Below, one piece after another: positions 7,552-42,360 of a stretch of DNA of 64,000 nucleotides; the stretch's first letter is position 1, and each line of letters starts with the position of its first letter. Under the pieces are notes generated by a model. It ran no database searches, was not told where the DNA came from, and worked only from the letters and a program-made list of their open reading frames with translations. The stretch comes from a virus (lineage: Duplodnaviria > Heunggongvirae > Uroviricota > Caudoviricetes), in IMG/VR virus record IMGVR_UViG_3300005076_000001, positions 23,361-87,360 of that record. One strand, written 5' to 3'. The position numbers were made by a program, and so were the translations under genes.

Positions 7552-8841
7552 ATGAGTAAGGTTTCGGATTTTATCAATATTCAAATTAGCCGTCAAACAC
7601 AATCTGTTTCTCGTGCTAGTTTCTCTGTGCCGATGTATCTGGCTGAACATGCTGGCTTTGCAGATCGTGCTCGCACATTCTCTAGCCTTGACGGTGTAGC
7701 AGAACTGTTTGACAGTGCTTCTCCTGTGTACAAAGCTGCTGAGAAGATGTTTGGTCAAGAGCTTGTTCCACAATCCATTATTATTGGTCGTAAAGCTGTT
7801 GCTGGTGGCACTATCAGTGTGTCTAGTGTTCTAGCCTCCTACACCTACAAACTCACTGTGAATGGTCAAACCATCACCTTCACATCTGATAGCACCCCTA
7901 CTGCAACTGAAATTGTTACTGGCCTGAAAGCTGCTTTCGATGCTGCTACTCCTGCTATTGTTGGTGTAACAGCCACCATCTCTGGCACTACTCTTGTTCT
8001 AGCTGCTTCCGGTGATTGGAGCGTTAAAGCTGGCACCAATCTGTCTCTGGTGTACGATGCATCCACTGAAACTTGGGTTGACGCCCTGAATGCTGTAGCT
8101 GCTGTTAATAGCAATTGGTATGTCTTTGCTGCTAACACTCACGCTAAAGCCGATCAGCTTGCGCTGGCTGCTGCAATTGAAGCACGCAAACAACTCTACT
8201 TCACTTCGACTGCCGATAGCACAGCTAAAGCCACTACCGTAACAGACGTAGGTCAAGCCCTGAAAGACCTCGGCTATGATCGTACACTGGTTATGTGGTC
8301 TGCTGTTGCTGCCACAGAAGAGCCTGAAGTTGCTGTTATGGCTAAGTTTAGTCAATACACCCCCGGCTCTGCAACCCTGATGTACAAGCAATTTGCTGGC
8401 GTCACTGTACAAGCTTTGACCGACAACGAAGTGGCTAACCTGAAAGCTAAGAACTACAACGTATACGAAACTGTTGGTGGCGTAGCGATGTTCTCTGATG
8501 GCGTCATGGCAAGTGGGGAATTTTGTGACACCATGTTCGTCAGTGACTGGTGCGAAGCGCGTATCCGCGAACGTGTATTCTTCAAGCTGGTGAATCTGTT
8601 GAAGCTTGGTTATACACGCGCTGGTGCTGCCATCATCGAGAATGAAATTCGTGCTGTGTTCACAGAAGGTGTTAGCTCTGGTGCATTTAGTCCTGATGTT
8701 CCTGCCATTATCTCCGTACCTGACCCTGTAACCGTTGACCCCAACCTGCGTGCTCAACGTAAACTGGAAGGTATTACGTTTGAATTCCGCCTTGGAAGTG
8801 CGGTGCATCGTGTTGGGATTAAAGGAATTTTGACCGTTTAA
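7552..8841 (+). CDS. tail sheath protein candidate
   Basis: 429 aa protein followed by 174 aa tube-like protein, chaperones, tape measure and Mu-type baseplate genes. Confidence 0.5.
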   Translation: MSKVSDFINIQISRQTQSVSRASFSVPMYLAEHAGFADRARTFSSLDGVAELFDSASPVYKAAEKMFGQELVPQSIIIGRKAVAGGTISVSSVLASYTYKLTVNGQTITFTSDSTPTATEIVTGLKAAFDAATPAIVGVTATISGTTLVLAASGDWSVKAGTNLSLVYDASTETWVDALNAVAAVNSNWYVFAANTHAKADQLALAAAIEARKQLYFTSTADSTAKATTVTDVGQALKDLGYDRTLVMWSAVAATEEPEVAVMAKFSQYTPGSATLMYKQFAGVTVQALTDNEVANLKAKNYNVYETVGGVAMFSDGVMASGEFCDTMFVSDWCEARIRERVFFKLVNLLKLGYTRAGAAIIENEIRAVFTEGVSSGAFSPDVPAIISVPDPVTVDPNLRAQRKLEGITFEFRLGSAVHRVGIKGILTV

Positions 8842-8853
8842 TAGGAGAATAGT

Positions 8854-9378
8854 ATGGCAACTCAAACACTGGCTACATTGGCCCCTGAGGATATTAAGGT
8901 AGTGGTTTCAACCGACACTTTCACCCACATCATCTCTGGTTATTCCGAAGATGCTATGGTGAGTATTGCTCGTAATAGTCCTACTTTTGAGATTTTTGTC
9001 TCGGCTGACAATCAACCGACTCGTGTTTACAAGAGCAACACTTCTGCCACTGTAACACTGACACTGAATCAAACTTCCGTGTCTAACGATGTTCTGTCTC
9101 AGCTTTACATCAACGACAAGAACAGCCGTAACAGCACTGGTTTGTTCCAGATTCAAATCTTGGATATGTCCGGTCGCAGCCGTTACACCTCTGGTCAAGC
9201 CTTCATCGCTGTTGTTCCTGACAGTGCATTTTCCAACTCGATTCAAACCCGTGATTGGCAAATCTTCTGCAACGACATGGAAACAATCATCGGTGGTAAT
9301 GCTCTGATTGGTGATGATGATGCTAACACACTGGCAACGCTTGGTGCAACTGTAGAAGCTAAATGGCGTAGCAACTAA
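8854..9378 (+). CDS. tail tube protein candidate
   Basis: 174 aa, directly after sheath candidate, followed by strong terminator. Confidence 0.5.
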   Translation: MATQTLATLAPEDIKVVVSTDTFTHIISGYSEDAMVSIARNSPTFEIFVSADNQPTRVYKSNTSATVTLTLNQTSVSNDVLSQLYINDKNSRNSTGLFQIQILDMSGRSRYTSGQAFIAVVPDSAFSNSIQTRDWQIFCNDMETIIGGNALIGDDDANTLATLGATVEAKWRSN

Positions 9379-9400
9379 CGTTTGAATAAATCAAACAGGG

Positions 9401-9430
9401 AGGGACATACAGAAATGTATGTCTCTTTTT
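9401..9430 (+). terminator. rho-independent terminator after tube gene
   Basis: AGGGACATACA-gaaa-TGTATGTCTCT stem-loop followed by TTTTCTTTT; same hairpin family as 45225 and 58421. Confidence 0.6.
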
Positions 9431-9489
9431 CTTTTATATTGTAAACACGTTCACACATGTTTGTGCTGTTGAGAAGAGCACATTTGCTC

Positions 9490-9517
9490 TTGACTTTAAG
9501 CGTGTTTATGCTATAAT
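9490..9517 (+). promoter_or_regulatory. sigma70 promoter TTGACT-N16-TGcTATAAT
   Basis: -35 9490-9495; extended -10 9509-9517; 22 nt upstream of ATG 9540. Confidence 0.55.
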
Positions 9518-9539
9518 TGAAATATAAGAAAGGGAATAC

Positions 9540-10016
9540 ATGGTTTACACATATTCCGCAGAAGACGTTGTTGTTCTTATTGGTGGCATGGCTGTAGAAG
9601 GAATTGACACATCTTCCTTCGTTACTGTAACAGCTTCGCAACCTGTATTTAAGACAAAACGCTCTGCTTCCGGCACTATCTCCCGCACTCTCGTAAAGAA
9701 TCAACAATACACTCTCAAGCTACGTCTTGTTCAAACATCTGAATTCAACGATAAATTGTGGATGTTGCTGACAACAGATCGCTATCTTGGCGATGCTATT
9801 TTCCCTCTGTTCATTAAAGACTTCTCTTCTGGTACAGCACTGATTGCAGGTCAAGCTTGGATTTGTGACTTCCCAGAGATTGTCTATTCTGATGGTGTGG
9901 AAATTCGTGAGTGGACAATTGACTTCACATCTGAATCCATCGCTATTTCTGGTGGTACAGATGGCGAGAGCTTCCTTGAAACAGCAATTAAATTGTTCTC
10001 GTCTGGAGTGATTTGA
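9540..10016 (+). CDS. tail protein, unknown role
   Basis: 158 aa, RBS AAGAAAGGGAA; between tube and chaperone genes. Confidence 0.4.
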   Translation: MVYTYSAEDVVVLIGGMAVEGIDTSSFVTVTASQPVFKTKRSASGTISRTLVKNQQYTLKLRLVQTSEFNDKLWMLLTTDRYLGDAIFPLFIKDFSSGTALIAGQAWICDFPEIVYSDGVEIREWTIDFTSESIAISGGTDGESFLETAIKLFSSGVI

Positions 10017-10654
10017 TGAATCTAGACTTAGTTAAAACGTACACACCAGAGAATGTTCAGCTAATTGTTGCAACATCAGATGGAACAAATACACTGTTCA
10101 CTGAATACATTACAGGTTGGAATAGTATCAAAGTGAAGCGAGACAATCAAGTGTTTCGCAAGATTAAAGGTATTCGTGGGACAGCTACACGTTCTCGTAC
10201 ATTTGATAGAAGCTTCTCCATTGAGGTGGGCATTGACCAAAACAGCAAAAGCAATCTTGTTCTAACATCTTTGTTGCGTCTTGATGGTAATGGTGTGCTT
10301 GAAGCTCCTTTGGCTATTCTTCTATCTGACGGTGTAACAGATAATACGTCTATCAGCGATTACGGCAACTTTCAAACACTGACAGGGCAAGAGTTTCCAG
10401 CTAAAGCAGGCACAACCGTTGCAAGCTACAAATGCTATTTGTCTGGCTTTCCTGAAGTGGAATATACAGACGAAGCTGTAGAACGTGTGTGGACATTTGA
10501 ATGTATTGATGCTTCTGAGTACATTGTGGGACGTGGTGCAAGCCTTCGTCAATCTTTGCTTGATGCTGCATCTCCTGTCCTTGATGGGTTGATTTCTCAA
10601 GCATCTAGTGTGGTGAGTAGCAGCTTACCATCTATCACCAAAATTTTCAATTAA
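10013..10654 (+). CDS. tail protein, unknown role
   Basis: 213 aa, ATGA overlap with previous gene. Confidence 0.4.
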   Translation: MMNLDLVKTYTPENVQLIVATSDGTNTLFTEYITGWNSIKVKRDNQVFRKIKGIRGTATRSRTFDRSFSIEVGIDQNSKSNLVLTSLLRLDGNGVLEAPLAILLSDGVTDNTSISDYGNFQTLTGQEFPAKAGTTVASYKCYLSGFPEVEYTDEAVERVWTFECIDASEYIVGRGASLRQSLLDAASPVLDGLISQASSVVSSSLPSITKIFN

Positions 10655-10675
10655 CAAATAAATAAGGAGAGCCTT

Positions 10676-11089
10676 ATGGCACTAACACAAAAAGAAGTAG
10701 AAATTAACGGCAGTAATTATCTGATTACATCGTTCGCTGGCATGAAAGGCTTCAACTACCTGAAACGTCTCACCAAACTTATTGGCCCTGCCCTGATGGC
10801 AGCTAATGGCGAAGGGGATGTTCTGGAAGGTAAGAGTCCAATGCAAGTGGCTGTAGAGGCTCTTGTAGATGCAACAGACAAAGTGGAAGTGGAACAACTC
10901 ATTCTTGATTTGCTGTCCAGTACATCTGTCAACGGCATTATGATCGATGCTAAGAAGTTTGACGATGTGTTTGCTGCCAACTACGGTGCTCTGTTCAAAA
11001 TTCTATTTGAAGTGTTGAAACACAATTACGGAAATTTTATGGAGGCCATTACTACCGTAGACATGCAACAAGTAATGGCAGGCAATTAA
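10676..11089 (+). CDS. tail assembly chaperone (gpG-like)
   Basis: 137 aa immediately upstream of tape measure; carries slippery site near 3' end. Confidence 0.55.
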   Translation: MALTQKEVEINGSNYLITSFAGMKGFNYLKRLTKLIGPALMAANGEGDVLEGKSPMQVAVEALVDATDKVEVEQLILDLLSSTSVNGIMIDAKKFDDVFAANYGALFKILFEVLKHNYGNFMEAITTVDMQQVMAGN

Positions 11090-11298
11090 GTAGAGTTGAA
11101 AAGGAGATACAAGACAAGCTCTCTGTTGATATGATTGTTTTTACCATATGTACAGCAGAACAGCCTCTTGCCCGTCTCTGGGAGTTAGAAACAATTTATT
11201 CTGTTGATGATGTTCTCATTCTTTACGAGATGATGCAAGCTAAATCTGCACTCATTGATGAGGCAAGGAAAGAACAAGAAAGACAGAACAACACGTGA
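10676..11298 (+). CDS. tail assembly chaperone GT-like fusion via programmed -1 frameshift at A_AAT_TTT (11032-11038)
   Basis: -1 frame open from 11011 to TGA 11296-11298, 87 codons beyond heptamer AAATTTT in X_XXY_YYZ register; no start codon in the extension; lies in 260 bp 'gap' before tape measure. Confidence 0.5.
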
Positions 11299-11305
11299 GA
11301 ATGTA

Positions 11306-11335
11306 GCCCTTGCCTTTGTGCAGGGGCTTTTCTTC
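11306..11335 (+). terminator. hairpin plus T-tract between chaperone and tape measure (partial terminator/attenuator)
   Basis: GCCCTTGC-ctttgt-GCAGGGGC followed by TTTTCTTC. Confidence 0.3.
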
Positions 11336-11351
11336 ATAACAAGGAAAATGT

Positions 11352-13508
11352 ATGGCTGAAAAAATTGCCGAGTATTTTGGGGCGTTAGGGTTTCAAGTTA
11401 ATGATAAAGGGCTAAAGGAATTTATCAAACAGCTTGACAATGTAGCCAAGAAAATGCAAGCTGTAACAAAGCTGGCTGTCGCAAGCAGTGGTGCAAGTGG
11501 TATGTCTCTCGGAATGCAGAAGCTAGCAACAGATGCAAAGAAAGCTGCTGACGGTGTAGAGAAGGCTACAACACGTATTACACGCAGTCGAGCGAAGCTT
11601 GGGTTGGTTGGTAAGAAGGCAACAGACATTCCGGCTACAGGAAGTTTGGCAAGCTTTCGTAGTAGAGTGTTGCTACTAAACCAACAAGCAAAGGAAGATG
11701 GTGCTGCAAAAGCTACGCTTGATCGTCTCACGAAGATGAAAGAGATGGCAGAGCAACGAGATGCGCTACGCCTACAACGTCGTCAAGAACGGATGGGAAG
11801 TGAAGATGAACGTCGCTATCAAAACCGCGTCTCTCGCACATATGCTCCCCGCACCTCACGTCTTGACCTCTACCAGAAAGACCTTGCACGTACACAGATG
11901 ATGTACAATGCAGCCCTTGCTGCTGGTGATGGTGGTGCTAAACGATATGCTGAAGCCATTAAGAAGCTACGAAGTGAAATCACATCCCTTAACAGGCAGA
12001 CAATGTTTGGTAAGATGGGTCTGAAAGGTGTTGGTGGATTTGGCTTAGGTGGTTTGGGTAGTGCTCTTGTTCCAATGTTAGGTATGGCTGCTGCTGGCGG
12101 TGCTGCTGGTTTGGGATATTCTGCTGTTGCCCTTAATCAGCAACTTGTAGAGAAGCAAAACATCAACGCACAGTTTGAAGGGTTGTATGGTGGTGCTTCG
12201 CAAGGTAAAGCTGGGTATGGCAGATTCAAGGATTATGCAAACCAGCGTGGTGTTCGTGCAGGCGATGTAGCACAAGATTATCTTGGCTTTATGTACTCTG
12301 CTAAAACCAACCTTGGTCTTGAGGGTGGTGAAAAGATTTTCCAGCAGTTTACAGATTTCGCTCGTGTACGTGGTACAAGTGGTGAACGCTACAAACGTGC
12401 ATTGGCTGCCCTCTCACAAATGGTGTCGAAAAACAGAATCTACTCTGAAGAATTGACACAACAGTTGTCTGAGCATTTGTTTGGTAGTAAAGAGATTTTT
12501 GCAGAAACCATCACGGGTAAAAAAGGCGGTGATGCCATGCAAGAATTGATGAAACAAATGAAATCGGACAAAGGTGTTACAACTTCTGATTGGTTGCCAA
12601 AAGTTACAGAGAAGATGCAGGAGCTTGCAAAAGAGTCCGGTGTTCTCGATAAGATGAGTAATAACCTAGATGCAACTCTGGCACGCCTTAATAACCGCTG
12701 GGGGGATTTCATCGGTAAGATAGAGGAAGTAGGTGTTGCAGATGCAATGGGGCGATTCATTGAAATGCTCACAGGCAAACTGGACATTCTTGAAGACTTC
12801 ATTGTAGAGAATAAAGATTCCATCATCAAACTGATGGATGCTTTCACAAGCTTTGTGGACTTCATTACCTCTAAAGAGTTTGTACTTATTGGTTTGACAG
12901 CAACCTTCACAGCCCTTGGTGCCGCAATTAAAACTAATGCTGTTTGGATGGGTATCCTCACTGGTCCAGCAACACTTGCAGGCTTTGGCAGTTTGATTAA
13001 GGCCATGTGGAGCTTGGCAGCCGCACAAGCTGTAGCGTTTGCTCCTTGGTTATGGCTTGGTACAATGATTGCTGTAACACTCCTCGTTCTTGAAGACTTC
13101 TATTATTGGGTGAATGGTAAACCTAGTTTGATGGGTGAGCTATTTGGCGATGCCGACGACATGTTCAAAGGTCTCGACCAGTTCTTTGATGACATGAAGA
13201 AGAAGTGGGATGAGGTTACGGCAGAAATGACCAAGATGTGGGAGAAATTTAAAACCACTGTAAGTAAGCCTTTTAACTGGCTCGGTAAGAAATGGGACGA
13301 TGTTTCTAAAGGTGCTGGTGAGATGATGAACGATATGGGTATTCGCACAAGCATTGTTGCAAATGCTCCCATGGTTACAGGGCAGCAGACCAAGCCTGCA
13401 CCGACATATCAACTTAATGGTGTAACTATTAATGCAAATGACCCAATGGCGTTAGGTAGAGCCTTACAGCAAGAAACTTCTAAATATTCTATTGGGGTTC
13501 CGCGATGA
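11352..13508 (+). CDS. tail tape measure protein
   Basis: 718 aa, coiled-coil N-terminus, Gly-rich and hydrophobic C-terminal segments, downstream of frameshifted chaperones. Confidence 0.75.
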   Translation: MAEKIAEYFGALGFQVNDKGLKEFIKQLDNVAKKMQAVTKLAVASSGASGMSLGMQKLATDAKKAADGVEKATTRITRSRAKLGLVGKKATDIPATGSLASFRSRVLLLNQQAKEDGAAKATLDRLTKMKEMAEQRDALRLQRRQERMGSEDERRYQNRVSRTYAPRTSRLDLYQKDLARTQMMYNAALAAGDGGAKRYAEAIKKLRSEITSLNRQTMFGKMGLKGVGGFGLGGLGSALVPMLGMAAAGGAAGLGYSAVALNQQLVEKQNINAQFEGLYGGASQGKAGYGRFKDYANQRGVRAGDVAQDYLGFMYSAKTNLGLEGGEKIFQQFTDFARVRGTSGERYKRALAALSQMVSKNRIYSEELTQQLSEHLFGSKEIFAETITGKKGGDAMQELMKQMKSDKGVTTSDWLPKVTEKMQELAKESGVLDKMSNNLDATLARLNNRWGDFIGKIEEVGVADAMGRFIEMLTGKLDILEDFIVENKDSIIKLMDAFTSFVDFITSKEFVLIGLTATFTALGAAIKTNAVWMGILTGPATLAGFGSLIKAMWSLAAAQAVAFAPWLWLGTMIAVTLLVLEDFYYWVNGKPSLMGELFGDADDMFKGLDQFFDDMKKKWDEVTAEMTKMWEKFKTTVSKPFNWLGKKWDDVSKGAGEMMNDMGIRTSIVANAPMVTGQQTKPAPTYQLNGVTINANDPMALGRALQQETSKYSIGVPR

Positions 13509-14224
13509 TTAGTATCCAAAGGCCAAACAAAGACCTTGTCCACCTATCTGTTATTACGTCTTATGGATTGAGTTATAGTAATTCTGTAACAGCACATCCT
13601 GTTGAGAACGGCAGTAAAATATCTGACCACGTTCAGTCCGAAAACCTGAAAGTAAGTTTGAATGGTGTGGTTGTAGATACAGACATTTTCTCTGGTACAA
13701 ATGTTGTCTCTGAACCTGCCATTCTTTCTCAGAACGATGCGTTTACTGTTGTTGCATCGACAGGTAGTAATGTAAAGCTTGGTGGCGATGTTGTCAAAAA
13801 GGCTTTACTTGACGCACGTAACAATAAAGAACTTTGTACCATCATTGATGGCGAGGTAGGTATTACAGGCCGTGCAACAGGTAAGGTGAAAAACGTGTAC
13901 AACAATTGCGTCATTACATCTCTGTCTTTTTCCGAAGGTGTAGATAGTGGCGATGGTGTTGAAGTGAGCTTAACGTTTGAGCAAATTAAACTTGTCACTC
14001 TGCGTGAAGTTGTTGTAAATGTCCCGCCTCAAAAGCAAACAGAGGGTAAAGGCACAACAGGCGGTAACAAGGGAAACACAAAGGACGGAAAAGCAACAAC
14101 CAACACACCCGCACAAAACACAAAACCAAATGAGAAAGGTAAAGCAGAAGGTAGTATTTTGCGAAAAGGTGTTGATAAAGCTCGCGGAACACTTACTGGT
14201 ATTTTAGAGAACGTATTCGGTTGA
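13505..14224 (+). CDS. tail/baseplate protein (Mu gp43-position), low-complexity Lys/Thr/Gly-rich C-terminus
   Basis: 239 aa, ATGA overlap with tape measure. Confidence 0.4.
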   Translation: MISIQRPNKDLVHLSVITSYGLSYSNSVTAHPVENGSKISDHVQSENLKVSLNGVVVDTDIFSGTNVVSEPAILSQNDAFTVVASTGSNVKLGGDVVKKALLDARNNKELCTIIDGEVGITGRATGKVKNVYNNCVITSLSFSEGVDSGDGVEVSLTFEQIKLVTLREVVVNVPPQKQTEGKGTTGGNKGNTKDGKATTNTPAQNTKPNEKGKAEGSILRKGVDKARGTLTGILENVFG

Positions 14225-41095: not shown

Positions 41096-41338
41096 TCAAA
41101 GGGTTGTCCACCAATCTGGAACATAACCCATTGCCACGTCCTTCTTACCTTCTTGTTTGCAGTTTGGACACTCTTTCAACTTAACGTCACCACTTAGCGA
41201 CCACTGATGGTTACAAATCTTACAACGACAATACGTTTGCATCCACAACTGCTTGATAGATACACTACTGTCTTCCGCTGTGAATTTAATCATGTTTTGT
41301 TTCTCCTTTACGATATTTCTCCGTGAACTCATCAACAC
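41096..41338 (-). CDS. Zn-ribbon protein
   Basis: CRCKICNH...CPNCK paired Cys motifs. Confidence 0.3.
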   Translation of the reverse strand: MLMSSRRNIVKEKQNMIKFTAEDSSVSIKQLWMQTYCRCKICNHQWSLSGDVKLKECPNCKQEGKKDVAMGYVPDWWTTL

Positions 41339-41624
41339 TCTTTTTCAACTCAGACATGTTCCGCTTGTGTGCATGATAGCGACGTTCACTATCCTTCTCT
41401 GCCTCTTCTTTCGTAGCAAACAAGAAACGCTCTTCAATTGTGTCAAAATAATTATCAATGTGCGTAAACACTTTAACAACGTAATGCACATGCTCAGAAA
41501 CATCGTTATCAAAGAATGGCGTTACGACAACAACGTCATAGGCTTCTTGGGGTTTGCTAGGCCACAGCTTCATAGCATCTGCTGTACGCCACAGAACATC
41601 ACCTGCTTTGTATTTCGGGTTCAT
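41286..41624 (-). CDS. hypothetical protein (copy B1 of duplicated cassette)
   Basis: 112 aa; paralog of 41983..42360 (PKYKAGDVLWRT, YIDNYF, ERFLFATKEEAEKDSERRYHAHKR). Confidence 0.4.
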   Translation of the reverse strand: MNPKYKAGDVLWRTADAMKLWPSKPQEAYDVVVVTPFFDNDVSEHVHYVVKVFTHIDNYFDTIEERFLFATKEEAEKDSERRYHAHKRNMSELKKSVDEFTEKYRKGETKHD

Positions 41625-41887
41625 ACTTCATCTCCAATAATACCTTCTGGCAAAAGTTGTTCTGTGAACACCAACACTGTTGGTTCTTCTTCCATAAACG
41701 GAACAGCAACGTGCTCCTCTTCAAACACAGCAAGCTGTTCCATCATGTCCTCTTTCTTCCCAAAAATAGCTTCCCAGCCTTTAGCATATTTCTCTTGACC
41801 AGAAGCTTTTGTCTTAATCAAATCCACTGTGCTGTCATCCAGCAATCCTGTGGTCTCAATATCAAAACACCATGCTCCCTTGTCCAT
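41621..41887 (-). CDS. hypothetical protein (copy A1 of duplicated cassette)
   Basis: start ATG 41887 with AAAGGAGAACAG RBS; paralog of 42344..42604 (DLIKTKASGQEKYAKGWEAIFGKK). Confidence 0.4.
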   Translation of the reverse strand: MDKGAWCFDIETTGLLDDSTVDLIKTKASGQEKYAKGWEAIFGKKEDMMEQLAVFEEEHVAVPFMEEEPTVLVFTEQLLPEGIIGDEV

Positions 41888-41965
41888 CTGTTCTCCTTTT
41901 GTAACATTGTTTGCAACGAGGGGCGTGTGACGAACGCAGGGAGCCACACACCCTTCCAAACAACT

Positions 41966-41993
41966 AATGTAACACAGAATGTCTATTTGTCAA
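41966..41993 (-). promoter_or_regulatory. early promoter TTGACAAATAGAC...TCTGTG-TACATT (minus strand)
   Basis: near-identical to pol promoter; minus-strand TTGACA (plus 41988-41993) N16 TACATT. Confidence 0.45.
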
Positions 41994-42360
41994 GAACGGT
42001 ACGTGCTTGTGCAGCCTTTGCTGCAAGCTCTTGCCCACGCTTCTTAGCTTCAGCCAACACACGCTTGTGTGCATGGTAACGCTTCTCACTATCTTTAACA
42101 GCTTCTTCTGCTGTCTCAAACAGACAACGCTCTGGGACAATGCAGAAATAATTGTCAATGTAAGTGTAGACAGTGCAAACATACCACACTTGGCTGTCAA
42201 CATCATGCTTGTCAAGAACAGCTGTCACTTGAACGTCATACGCTTCTTTAGCAGGCTTCTCTCCAACTTTCCACCAAATGTTTTCTGCGTCGCTTGTACG
42301 CCAAACAATTTTACCAATGTTGTATTTTGGGACAATAACTTTATCATTGTTCATTTTCAA
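41983..42360 (-). CDS. hypothetical protein (copy B2)
   Basis: 125 aa paralog of B1. Confidence 0.4.
   Translation of the reverse strand: MKMNNDKVIVPKYNIGKIVWRTSDAENIWWKVGEKPAKEAYDVQVTAVLDKHDVDSQVWYVCTVYTYIDNYFCIVPERCLFETAEEAVKDSEKRYHAHKRVLAEAKKRGQELAAKAAQARTVLDK

What the first reader, a model, noticed from the sequence alone, without database searches (positions are those of the whole stretch)
11032..11298. Programmed -1 frameshift (A_AAT_TTT) generating a GT-like tail chaperone fusion
The 260 bp apparent gap between the chaperone gene and the tape measure is an 87-codon open -1 frame without a start codon. It begins just after a canonical X_XXY_YYZ heptamer, AAATTTT, 50 nt before the gene's stop. 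This is the conserved dsDNA-phage G/GT arrangement and shows the sequence alone can mislead ORF callers here.
Basis: partly seen in the sequence, partly recalled or inferred. Interest (0 to 1): 0.5.

Follow-up and report, generated by a model that had tools for sequence, protein, structure and literature searches.

The report
Tail chaperone -1 frameshift site
A phage tail-assembly chaperone gene very likely makes a second, longer protein when ribosomes slip back one base at A_AAT_TTT; this is a textbook phage arrangement already proposed for this phage group, so it is ordinary.

Summary
The tail assembly chaperone gene (10676-11089, Pfam Phage_TAC_15) carries AAATTTT at 11032-11038 in the X_XXY_YYZ register. 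The -1 frame is open from 11011 to 11298, ending 53 nt before the tape measure gene.

Comparative evidence supports a programmed -1 frameshift giving a 207-aa fusion:
- All of the roughly 55 related loci checked keep a 48-89-codon -1 extension.
- All carry a T-rich slip motif at the same Phe codon.
- Against a close relative, substitutions move from the third position of frame 0 to the third position of frame -1 across a 58-nt overlap that has no changes.
- dN/dS of the extension is 0.10-0.29.
- No start codon is conserved in the extension.
- One distant relative encodes both halves in a single ORF.

A 9-bp hairpin (11045-11079) starts 6 nt after the heptamer and is kept in the window's clade.

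The kind is known: lambda G/GT, and a 2025 paper proposes the same frameshift at an "invariant GTTTTT" in Vandenendeviridae, distant relatives of this phage. Three details appear new: the canonical AAATTTT replacing GTTTTT, the downstream hairpins, and a conserved terminator-like hairpin before the tape measure gene. No protein data exist. This is a new member of a known kind, of low interest.

The parts
10676..11089 (+). Tail assembly chaperone gene (G-like, 'TAC-N'), 137 aa, frame 0
   Evidence: Pfam PF21822 Phage_TAC_15, E 2.7e-21, 76.8 bits against a cutoff of 22. phrog_1613 tail assembly chaperone, E 2e-27. dN/dS 0.02-0.23 against relatives.
11011..11089 (+). Overlap zone, open in both frame 0 and frame -1 (26 codons)
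   Evidence: There are no substitutions in 11032-11089 against the close relative L072, while the flanks differ at 6-12% of sites.
11032..11038 (+). Slippery heptamer A_AAT_TTT (P-site AAT Asn120, A-site TTT Phe121)
   Evidence: The register is checked. It is the only in-register X_XXY_YYZ in the overlap, and the only in-register AAATTTT in any ORF of the window. It is identical in L072, L001-L012 and L073. The homologous Phe codon carries NGTTTTT, TTTTTTC, TTTTTTT or T_TTT_TTA in more distant relatives.
11039..11044 (+). 6-nt spacer (ATGGAG) between the heptamer and the hairpin
   Evidence: Read directly from the sequence and from the folds.
11045..11079 (+). Putative stimulatory stem-loop: arms 11045-11053 (GCCATTACT) and 11071-11079 (AGTAATGGC), 17-nt loop
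   Evidence: It appears in the MFE and centroid structures in two sequence contexts. Folded alone it gives -12.1 kcal/mol, z -4.24, 0 of 200 shuffles as stable. All 9 pairs are kept in 4 distinct clade sequences, with two A-to-G changes that leave G-U pairs. Arms vary at 2 of 18 columns against 9 of 17 in the loop, Fisher p = 0.012.
11038..11298 (+). T-like extension read in the -1 frame (86 codons plus TGA). The predicted fusion is join(10676..11038,11038..11298), 207 aa, with junction ...HNYGNF|YGGHYYRR...
   Evidence: phrog_4625, E 1.3e-9. dN/dS 0.10-0.29. Substitutions against L072 fall at the third position of frame -1: 18 of 25. It aligns with the extensions of Pseudomonas phages. It is colinear with the single-ORF fusion P0012.
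11131..11298 (+). 55-aa ORF from the first ATG inside the extension. This is what ORF callers report; it is probably not an independent gene.
   Evidence: No SD-like motif lies upstream, and the position is not conserved: L007 has Gly and L013 has Pro there. It would remove the conserved EKEIQDKLSVD segment.
11305..11328 (+). Intrinsic-terminator-like hairpin followed by TTTCTTC, between the extension's stop and the TMP start
   Evidence: 9 pairs, 6 of them G-C. A nearly identical element is present in L072, L001, L011, L007 and L013. It is absent from the Pseudomonas phage relatives.
11352..13508 (+). Tape measure protein gene (718 aa)
   Evidence: Pfam PF20155 TMP_3, E 1.4e-15. Several tape-measure PHROGs also match.
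8854..10654 (+). Context: three tail-tube paralogues (8854-9378, 9540-10016, 10013-10654), downstream of the sheath gene 7552-8841
   Evidence: phrog_280 matches all three. phrog_205 and PF11863 identify the sheath. The triplicated tube locus is described for Vandenendeviridae in PMC12846349.

Best explanation
**The locus.** This is the G/GT-type tail assembly chaperone locus of a contractile-tailed phage distantly related to Vandenendeviridae.

**Products.**
- Most ribosomes translate 10676-11089 and release the 137-aa chaperone.
- A minority pause with tRNA-Asn on AAU in the P site and tRNA-Phe on UUU in the A site.
- The pause is helped by a 9-bp hairpin whose base lies 6 nt downstream.
- These ribosomes slip back one base (AAU to AAA, UUU to UUU) and continue in the -1 frame to TGA at 11296-11298.
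- The result is a 207-aa fusion of chaperone residues 1-121 and an 86-residue T-like extension.

**Function, by analogy with lambda gpG/gpGT.** The shared N-terminal part would coat the tape measure protein, and the extension would recruit tube subunits. The slip frequency would fix the ratio of short to long form.

**What is shown.** The anatomy, its conservation, selection on the -1 frame, and the conservation of the hairpin.

**What is inferred.** The slip itself, its efficiency, the stimulatory role of the hairpin, and the functions of the two domains.
For: 1. The upstream ORF is a TAC and the downstream gene is a TMP.
2. The heptamer is in register and is the only one in the 26-codon overlap.
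3. The +1 frame closes after 5 codons, so only a -1 shift is productive.
4. All of the roughly 55 related loci have a -1 extension of 48-89 codons ending just before the TMP gene.
5. The slip motif sits at the same Phe codon throughout the family: AAATTTT in the window's clade; G/T/C/A-GTTTTT, TTTTTTC, TTTTTTT and T_TTT_TTA elsewhere.
6. Against L072, differences by frame-0 codon position are [1,0,21] in G, 0 in the 58-nt overlap, and [2,18,5] in the extension. The silent position therefore moves to frame -1.
7. dN/dS of the extension is 0.10-0.29.
8. The first start codon in the extension is not conserved. In many loci it lies beyond codon 50.
9. P0012 in locus L075 is a single 222-aa ORF, directly upstream of a TMP gene, that aligns to the predicted fusion across the junction (hhalign probability 98%).
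10. The hairpin lies 6 nt after the heptamer, gives -12.1 kcal/mol and z -4.2, and keeps all its pairs in the clade.
11. The GTTTTT clade has an analogous hairpin 7-9 nt downstream, with C-G to A-U covariation at one pair (12 against 11 sequences). The longest perfect stem averaged 7.17 pairs, against 5.68 +/- 0.17 after shuffling the downstream sequence.
12. In E. coli, H_HH.U_UU.Y heptamers, a class that includes A_AA.U_UU.U, are among the most efficient. The bare U_UU.U tetramer also shifts when a structure follows it (PMC4066793).
13. PMC12846349 argues for the same frameshift in Vandenendeviridae and Andersonviridae.
Against: - There are no protein, ribosome-profiling or reporter data for this phage or for any relative. 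All evidence is comparative.
- The heptamer alone has a chance probability of about 0.06.
- Hairpin support inside the window's clade rests on 4 distinct sequences, with only one-sided (G-U) changes and no double-sided covariation.
- The hairpin boundaries were chosen after seeing the fold. The 141-nt context fold is not unusually stable (z -0.5).
- An ATG at 11131 could in principle start a 55-aa product. In L001 and L011 the equivalent ATG has a GAGG upstream.
- The arm alignment used for covariation in the GTTTTT clade was fitted by me to the best 3' partner.
- The single-ORF fusion rests on one metagenome contig and could be a 1-nt assembly error.
- The host, and therefore its tRNA pool, is unknown.
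Confidence: 0.86

Rival explanations
1. The extension is a separate small gene. It is translated on its own from the ATG at 11131 (55 aa), and no fusion protein is made.
For: ORF 11131-11298 exists. Databases hold it and its relatives as separate 48-79-aa proteins. GenBank records annotate it so. L001 and L011 have a GAGG upstream of the equivalent ATG.
Against: - There is no SD-like motif before 11131.
- The ATG is replaced by Gly in L007 and by Pro in L013.
- In many relatives the first possible start lies beyond codon 50 of about 90.
- Conserved residues (EKEIQDKLSVD) lie upstream of the ATG.
- The -1 frame stays open back into the chaperone gene in every locus.
- A single-ORF fusion exists in one relative.
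Confidence: 0.05
2. The fusion is made, but through transcriptional slippage. RNA polymerase drops one U in the T run, producing an mRNA in which the two halves are in frame.
For: The motif shared across the family is a T run, and some distant relatives have runs of 7 or more T (L068, L070, L071). The in-frame fusion in L075 looks like a slip site with one T fewer.
Against: - The window's run is only 4 T, and the common GTTTTT has 5. From general knowledge of polymerase slippage, such runs are well below the length at which appreciable slippage is seen, about 7-9 identical bases.
- The motif is kept in the codon register needed for tRNA re-pairing.
- A hairpin sits at the spacing typical of ribosomal frameshift stimulators.
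Confidence: 0.04
3. This is a variant of the main mechanism. The effective element is the tetramer U_UUU, with tRNA-Phe slipping alone, as in the NGTTTTT relatives. The AAA of the heptamer would then be incidental rather than part of a tandem two-tRNA slip.
For: Across the family, the base before GTTTTT can be G, T, C or A, and only T_TTT is universal. U_UU.U tetramers frameshift in E. coli when followed by a structure (PMC4066793).
Against: AAATTTT is strictly conserved in the window's clade, although GGA AAT has synonymous alternatives. Heptamers of the class H_HH.U_UU.Y are more efficient than tetramers. Both variants give the same protein, so sequence data cannot separate them.
Confidence: 0.2
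4. The open -1 frame is a chance or decaying remnant, and the extension is not expressed.
For: From base composition alone, 69 open codons occur with P of about 0.018, which is not negligible across a whole genome.
Against: The frame is open in all of the roughly 55 loci at down to about 25% identity. dN/dS is 0.10-0.29, with substitutions concentrated at the third position of frame -1. The extension matches a PHROG family.
Confidence: 0.01

Closest known systems
Phage lambda gpG/gpGT and the conserved G/GT frameshift of long-tailed dsDNA phages (Levin 1993; Xu, Hendrix and Duda 2004, 2013, 2014, as reviewed in PMC5009743)
   Same: Two overlapping ORFs lie directly upstream of the tape measure gene. 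The second ORF is in the -1 frame with no start of its own. [quoted passage not shown] The expected result is a short chaperone and a minor long form that share an N-terminus.
   Different: There is no detectable sequence similarity to lambda G or T. The heptamer is A_AAU_UUU rather than G_GGA_AAG. The phage has a contractile tail. A hairpin follows the site here. From general knowledge, lambda's site is described as working without a strong downstream structure. Two extra tube paralogues separate the first tube gene from the chaperone gene.
TAC-N/TAC-NC locus of Vandenendeviridae (Pakpunavirus, Nankokuvirus and others) and Andersonviridae, proposed -1 frameshift at an 'invariant GTTTTT' (PMC12846349, 2025)
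   Same: The chaperone is homologous (33-43% identity), as is the extension. The gene order is the same, including three tube paralogues. The slip occurs at the same Phe codon.
   Different: The window's clade has AAATTTT, not GTTTTT, so the motif is not invariant once more distant relatives are included. The overlap after the slip is longer (about 50 nt against 24-30 nt). The hairpin has a different sequence and lies wholly upstream of the frame-0 stop, whereas in the GTTTTT clade the stop lies in the hairpin loop. A terminator-like hairpin separates the extension from the TMP gene. The paper does not mention any downstream structure.
Phage P2 gpE/gpE+E' (a myovirus version of the G/GT frameshift; PMC5009743)
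   Same: It is a contractile-tailed phage with a -1 frameshift in the chaperone gene upstream of the tape measure gene.
   Different: It belongs to an unrelated protein family. No sequence comparison with P2 was made here.
Phage T7 gene 10A/10B frameshift and the G_GUU_UUU sites of cardioviruses and arteriviruses (from general knowledge; T7 is cited in PMC12846349)
   Same: These are U-rich -1 slip sites of the GUUUUY type, as in this family's GTTTTT members.
   Different: They are different genes with different stimulators. The window itself uses a canonical X_XXY_YYZ heptamer.

Membership tests
G/GT-type tail assembly chaperone with programmed -1 frameshift | The first ORF is a tail assembly chaperone | tested here: met
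   PF21822 Phage_TAC_15 at 76.8 bits, cutoff 22. phrog_1613, E 2e-27.
G/GT-type tail assembly chaperone with programmed -1 frameshift | The locus lies between the tail tube gene(s) and the tape measure gene, immediately upstream of the latter | tested here: met
   Tube paralogues at 8854-10654, chaperone at 10676-11089, TMP at 11352-13508.
G/GT-type tail assembly chaperone with programmed -1 frameshift | The second ORF overlaps the 3' end of the first in the -1 frame and has no conserved translation start of its own | tested here: met
   The -1 frame is open 11011-11298. The first start is at codon 32, without an SD motif and not conserved across relatives.
G/GT-type tail assembly chaperone with programmed -1 frameshift | A slippery sequence in the correct register lies inside the overlap | tested here: met
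   A_AAT_TTT at 11032-11038 is the only in-register heptamer in the overlap.
G/GT-type tail assembly chaperone with programmed -1 frameshift | The arrangement is conserved in relatives despite sequence divergence, and the extension is under purifying selection | tested here: met
   About 55 loci. dN/dS 0.10-0.29 and a phase switch in substitutions.
G/GT-type tail assembly chaperone with programmed -1 frameshift | The trans-frame protein is made at a low, fixed ratio to the short form | not testable with these tools
   This needs mass spectrometry, western blotting or a reporter assay.
G/GT-type tail assembly chaperone with programmed -1 frameshift | The shared domain binds the tape measure protein, the extension binds the tube protein, and neither is found in virions | not testable with these tools
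   Inferred from lambda (PMC5009743).
Vandenendeviridae/Andersonviridae TAC-N/TAC-NC locus (PMC12846349) | The chaperone and extension proteins are homologous | tested here: met
   tblastn at 33-43% identity to 223 Pseudomonas phage records. Nine records match both halves. Alignment A1.
Vandenendeviridae/Andersonviridae TAC-N/TAC-NC locus (PMC12846349) | An invariant GTTTTT motif lies near the 3' end of TAC-N | tested here: not met
   The window and its clade have AATTTT within AAATTTT. Only T_TTT is shared.
Vandenendeviridae/Andersonviridae TAC-N/TAC-NC locus (PMC12846349) | The phage belongs to the family taxonomically (genome-level relatedness) | tested here: inconclusive
   There is no megablast match to any of 50,697 phage records, and protein identities are only 33-43%. 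The tail-module gene order is shared. No genome-wide comparison was made.

The most novel reading that the evidence does not exclude
In this chaperone family, the slip site and its downstream RNA stimulator may evolve as a replaceable pair anchored at one Phe codon. Most members use NGUUUUU followed 7-9 nt later by a GGUUC(C/A)G...C(G/U)GAACC hairpin whose loop holds the frame-0 stop. The window's clade has swapped both for a canonical A_AAU_UUU and an unrelated 9-bp hairpin, and has added a conserved terminator-like hairpin before the tape measure gene. One relative has dispensed with frameshifting altogether through an in-frame fusion. Neither hairpin is mentioned in the 2025 paper that proposed the frameshift.
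Probability: 0.5. Interest if true: 0.3.

Novelty: new member of a known kind. Interest (0 to 1): 0.2.

Why it matters
The main value is for annotation. The 262-nt 'gap' is not intergenic, and the 55-aa ORF that callers report there is a fragment of the long chaperone isoform. The correct feature is join(10676..11038,11038..11298).

Beyond that, the locus shows that the 'invariant GTTTTT' reported for Vandenendeviridae is not invariant in more distant relatives. It also supplies candidate stimulatory hairpins with some covariation. These could be tested cheaply in reporters to learn how phages set the ratio of short to long chaperone.

None of this changes the general picture of tail assembly.

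Tried and rejected
- **Megablast of 9500-13600 against 50,697 phage records:** no match. Relatives had to be found through proteins.
- **Rfam scan of 10600-11400:** only two chance-level hits, below their gathering scores. No described RNA family covers the hairpin.
- **MAFFT plus RNAalifold on 36 GTTTTT-clade sequences:** no consensus structure, because loop lengths of 6-52 nt misaligned the 3' arms. I replaced this with an anchored search for the 3' partner, a shuffle control and pair counting. That alignment is fitted to the structure.
- **Word-indexed protein search with the extension alone:** only one 55-aa hit. The exhaustive search found 8 hits, including the 222-aa fusion.
- **tRNA genes in the window:** none. 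There is therefore no evidence of phage-encoded tRNA-Asn or tRNA-Phe.
- **SD-like stimulator 10-14 nt upstream of the heptamer, as in dnaX:** none was seen in the sequence.
- **Pseudoknot:** by eye, loop CAACA (11066-11070) could pair with TGTTG (11123-11127). That stretch encodes the conserved LSVD residues and the complement is not kept in L001, so I make no claim. No pseudoknot predictor was available.
- **+1 or -2 shift:** rejected, because the +1 frame closes after 5 codons.
- **Structure prediction of the fusion:** not attempted.

Full report
**1. The observation**

The window holds an ORF at 10676-11089 (137 aa, stop TAA 11087-11089) and a long ORF at 11352-13508. AAATTTT lies at 11032-11038. 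The frame-0 codons are GGA AAT TTT, so it reads A_AAT_TTT in the register that the tandem-slip model requires.

The -1 frame is open from 11011, after TGA 11008-11010, to TGA 11296-11298. After the slip it contributes 86 sense codons. The +1 frame closes after 5 codons.

Two details are not right.
- The -1 frame opens 21 nt before the heptamer, not just after it.
- The frame does contain an ATG, at 11131 (a 55-aa ORF), though not near its beginning.

The last 53 nt of the gap are not coding.

By chance alone the signal is weak. In-register X_XXY_YYZ heptamers occur at 43 of 17,650 codon positions in the window's ORFs, which gives P of about 0.06 for the 26-codon overlap. From base composition, 69 open codons have P of about 0.018.

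**2. What the genes are**

- The first ORF is a tail assembly chaperone: Pfam PF21822 Phage_TAC_15, E 2.7e-21, 76.8 bits against a cutoff of 22, and phrog_1613.
- The downstream gene is a tape measure protein: PF20155, plus many tape-measure PHROGs.
- Upstream lie a tail terminator, a sheath (PF11863, phrog_205) and three tube paralogues (phrog_280). The phage therefore has a contractile tail.
- The -1 extension matches phrog_4625, a family of unknown function, at E 1.3e-9 over residues 22-84.

**3. Relatives**

No phage record matches at the DNA level. At the protein level the predicted fusion matches 226 phage records, 223 of them Pseudomonas phages, at 33-43% identity. In nine records both halves match, in two pieces on one strand.

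Closer relatives come from metagenomes, with chaperones 99%, 74%, 62% and 52% identical. A scan of viral contigs added 52 loci.

In the six GenBank records inspected (Bitten, UAVern, ventosus, XD2, KoPa-4, PAK_P3), the extension is annotated as a separate hypothetical protein and no frameshift is annotated.

**4. Evidence that the extension is translated as part of the chaperone**

(a) In every one of the roughly 55 loci, the -1 frame is open across the chaperone's stop. It runs 48-89 codons further, to just before the TMP gene.

(b) A T-rich slip motif sits at the homologous Phe codon in all of them.
- AAATTTT in the window, L072, L001-L012 and L073.
- GGTTTTT in most others, with TGTTTTT, CGTTTTT and AGTTTTT variants.
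- TTTTTTC or TTTTTTT in the most distant loci.
- T_TTT_TTA in L074.

(c) The window and L072 differ at 48 sites in this locus. By frame-0 codon position the counts are [1,0,21] in the chaperone, none in the 58-nt overlap, and [2,18,5] in the extension. Frame-0 position 2 is frame -1 position 3, so the silent position moves exactly as a -1 shift predicts.

(d) dN/dS of the extension read in frame -1 is 0.10-0.29, similar to the chaperone's 0.02-0.23.

(e) No start codon is conserved in the extension. The window's ATG has no SD motif and is Gly in L007 and Pro in L013. In several loci the first ATG, GTG or TTG lies beyond codon 50 of about 90. Conserved residues lie upstream of the window's ATG.

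(f) An exhaustive profile-free search with the extension found a 222-aa protein, P0012. It carries the extension at residues 155-215.
- It is a single ORF directly upstream of a TMP gene and downstream of a tube-like gene.
- It has a weak TAC_15 match.
- It aligns to the predicted fusions across the junction with hhalign probability 98%.
- Its DNA reads GAG TTT ATG at the junction, which is one T fewer than a T_TTT slip site would have.
- It rests on a single contig, so an assembly error cannot be excluded.

**5. The likely mechanism**

The heptamer places AAU (Asn120) in the P site and UUU (Phe121) in the A site. After a -1 slip the tRNAs face AAA and UUU. The next codon read is UAU at 11038-11040, which gives the junction ...HNYGNF|YGGHYYRR... 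and a 207-aa product.

In E. coli, heptamers of the class H_HH.U_UU.Y, which includes A_AA.U_UU.U, are among the most efficient. The U_UU.U tetramer also shifts when a structure follows it (PMC4066793).

Six nucleotides after the heptamer lies a perfect 9-bp stem, GCCATTACT (11045-11053) paired with AGTAATGGC (11071-11079), with a 17-nt loop.
- It appears in the MFE and centroid folds of both a 69-nt and a 141-nt context.
- Folded alone it gives -12.1 kcal/mol, z -4.24. The boundaries were chosen after the fact.
- In the four distinct sequences of the clade, all nine pairs are kept. Two A-to-G changes leave G-U pairs.
- The arms vary at 2 of 18 columns and the loop at 9 of 17, although both lie in the same doubly coding stretch (Fisher p = 0.012).

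The GTTTTT clade has a hairpin of its own, 7-9 nt downstream: GGTTC(C/A)G paired with C(G/T)GAACC. The frame-0 stop lies in its loop.
- The longest perfect stem averages 7.17 pairs, against 5.68 +/- 0.17 after shuffling the downstream sequence.
- On an arm alignment that I fitted myself, one pair is C-G in 12 sequences and A-U in 11, and two further pairs alternate between C-G and A-U. All measures exceed 500 shuffles and all slid registers.

A modest hairpin at this spacing is what a low-level frameshift stimulator looks like. That the hairpin stimulates the slip is an inference.

**6. Rivals**

- **Independent translation from 11131.** This is contradicted by points (e) and (f) in section 4.
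- **Transcriptional slippage.** It is unlikely for a run of four T. From general knowledge, appreciable polymerase slippage needs about 7-9 identical bases. It cannot be excluded without RNA data.
- **A single-tRNA slip on U_UUU.** This would give the same protein. It is plausible as the ancestral mode, because the base before GTTTTT varies freely. The strict conservation of AAATTTT in the window's clade favours a tandem slip there.
- **A non-expressed remnant.** This is excluded by the selection data.

**7. Comparison with what is known**

This is the G/GT arrangement of lambda and most long-tailed phages. A short chaperone and a rare long form share an N-terminal domain that binds the tape measure protein, and the extension recruits the tube protein (PMC5009743).

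For this protein family specifically, PMC12846349 (December 2025) already argues for a conserved -1 frameshift. That paper analysed 56 Vandenendeviridae alleles and 231 Andersonviridae genomes, and found an open -1 frame in all and an 'invariant GTTTTT'. It mentions no RNA structure.

The window's phage shares the chaperone, the extension, the three tube paralogues and the slip position. It fails the GTTTTT criterion, has a longer overlap, and has a different hairpin.

Whether it belongs to Vandenendeviridae (a family in NCBI taxonomy) was not settled. There is no DNA-level match, and only 33-43% protein identity at this locus.

**8. Verdict**

It is a new member of a known kind. The small additions are the canonical heptamer replacing GTTTTT, the conserved hairpins in both clades, the conserved terminator-like element before the TMP gene, and a possible natural in-frame fusion.

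Interest is low for a specialist. The practical consequence is a corrected annotation.

Noticed in passing
window 11305-11328 (also L072, L001, L011, L007, L013): An intrinsic-terminator-like hairpin (AGCCCTTGCC...GCAGGGGCT followed by TTTCTTC) lies between the extension's stop and the TMP start. It is almost identical in relatives whose chaperones are only 52-74% identical. It is absent from the Pseudomonas phage relatives, where the TMP gene starts 15-30 nt after the stop or overlaps the extension's 3' end (PAK_P3). It may attenuate TMP expression or stabilise the upstream transcript.
   Followed up: partly
window 9397-9430 and 9490-9517: A strong terminator-like hairpin (15 pairs) is followed by a near-consensus promoter (TTGACT, 16 nt, TATAAT, with TG; 11 of 12 matches). 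Both lie between the first tube gene and the second tube paralogue. The PAK_P3 record carries an RNA-seq-supported terminator at the equivalent place.
   Followed up: no
window 8854-9378, 9540-10016, 10013-10654: Three consecutive tail-tube paralogues all match phrog_280. This matches the triplicated tube locus described for Vandenendeviridae.
   Followed up: partly
L001-L005 (relatives), about 1.5-3 kb downstream of the chaperone: The tape measure genes of several close relatives are interrupted by LAGLIDADG or HNH homing endonuclease genes. They are called as two or more pieces, which suggests introns or mobile insertions. L011 (806 aa) and the window (718 aa) have uninterrupted TMP genes.
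   Followed up: no
L075 3001-3669 (Logan SRR7002834 contig, 50.9 kb): A single 222-aa ORF (P0012) joins a TAC-like N-terminal domain to the extension domain through a Pro-rich linker, directly upstream of a TMP gene. No slip site is present and the other frames are closed. It is either a natural in-frame fusion or a 1-nt assembly error at the T run.
   Followed up: partly
whole window: The palindrome AAATTT is about three-fold depleted (16 sites against 48 +/- 6 expected). AAATTTT is depleted as well (8 against 29 +/- 6). This may be restriction-site avoidance. The slip site is the only in-register AAATTTT in any ORF.
   Followed up: no
window 41253-41798 and 41657-42079 (+): Two ORFs overlap by 142 nt. 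The second is in the -1 frame of the first, and an in-register C_CCA_AAA lies at 41759. Neither ORF matches a PHROG family. It is not known whether either is a real gene or whether a second frameshift occurs here.
   Followed up: partly
L007 457-1707: A relative carries a GDSL-lipase gene inserted between the tail tube gene and its paralogues. The window has no gene at that place.
   Followed up: no
GTTTTT-clade relatives (for example L015 1843-1873, L057 1851-1888): A conserved hairpin lies 7-9 nt after the slip site, with the chaperone's stop codon in its loop. A synonymous C/A change in the 5' arm is matched by a Gly/Ser codon change in the 3' arm. The hairpin is not mentioned in the paper that proposed the frameshift.
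   Followed up: yes
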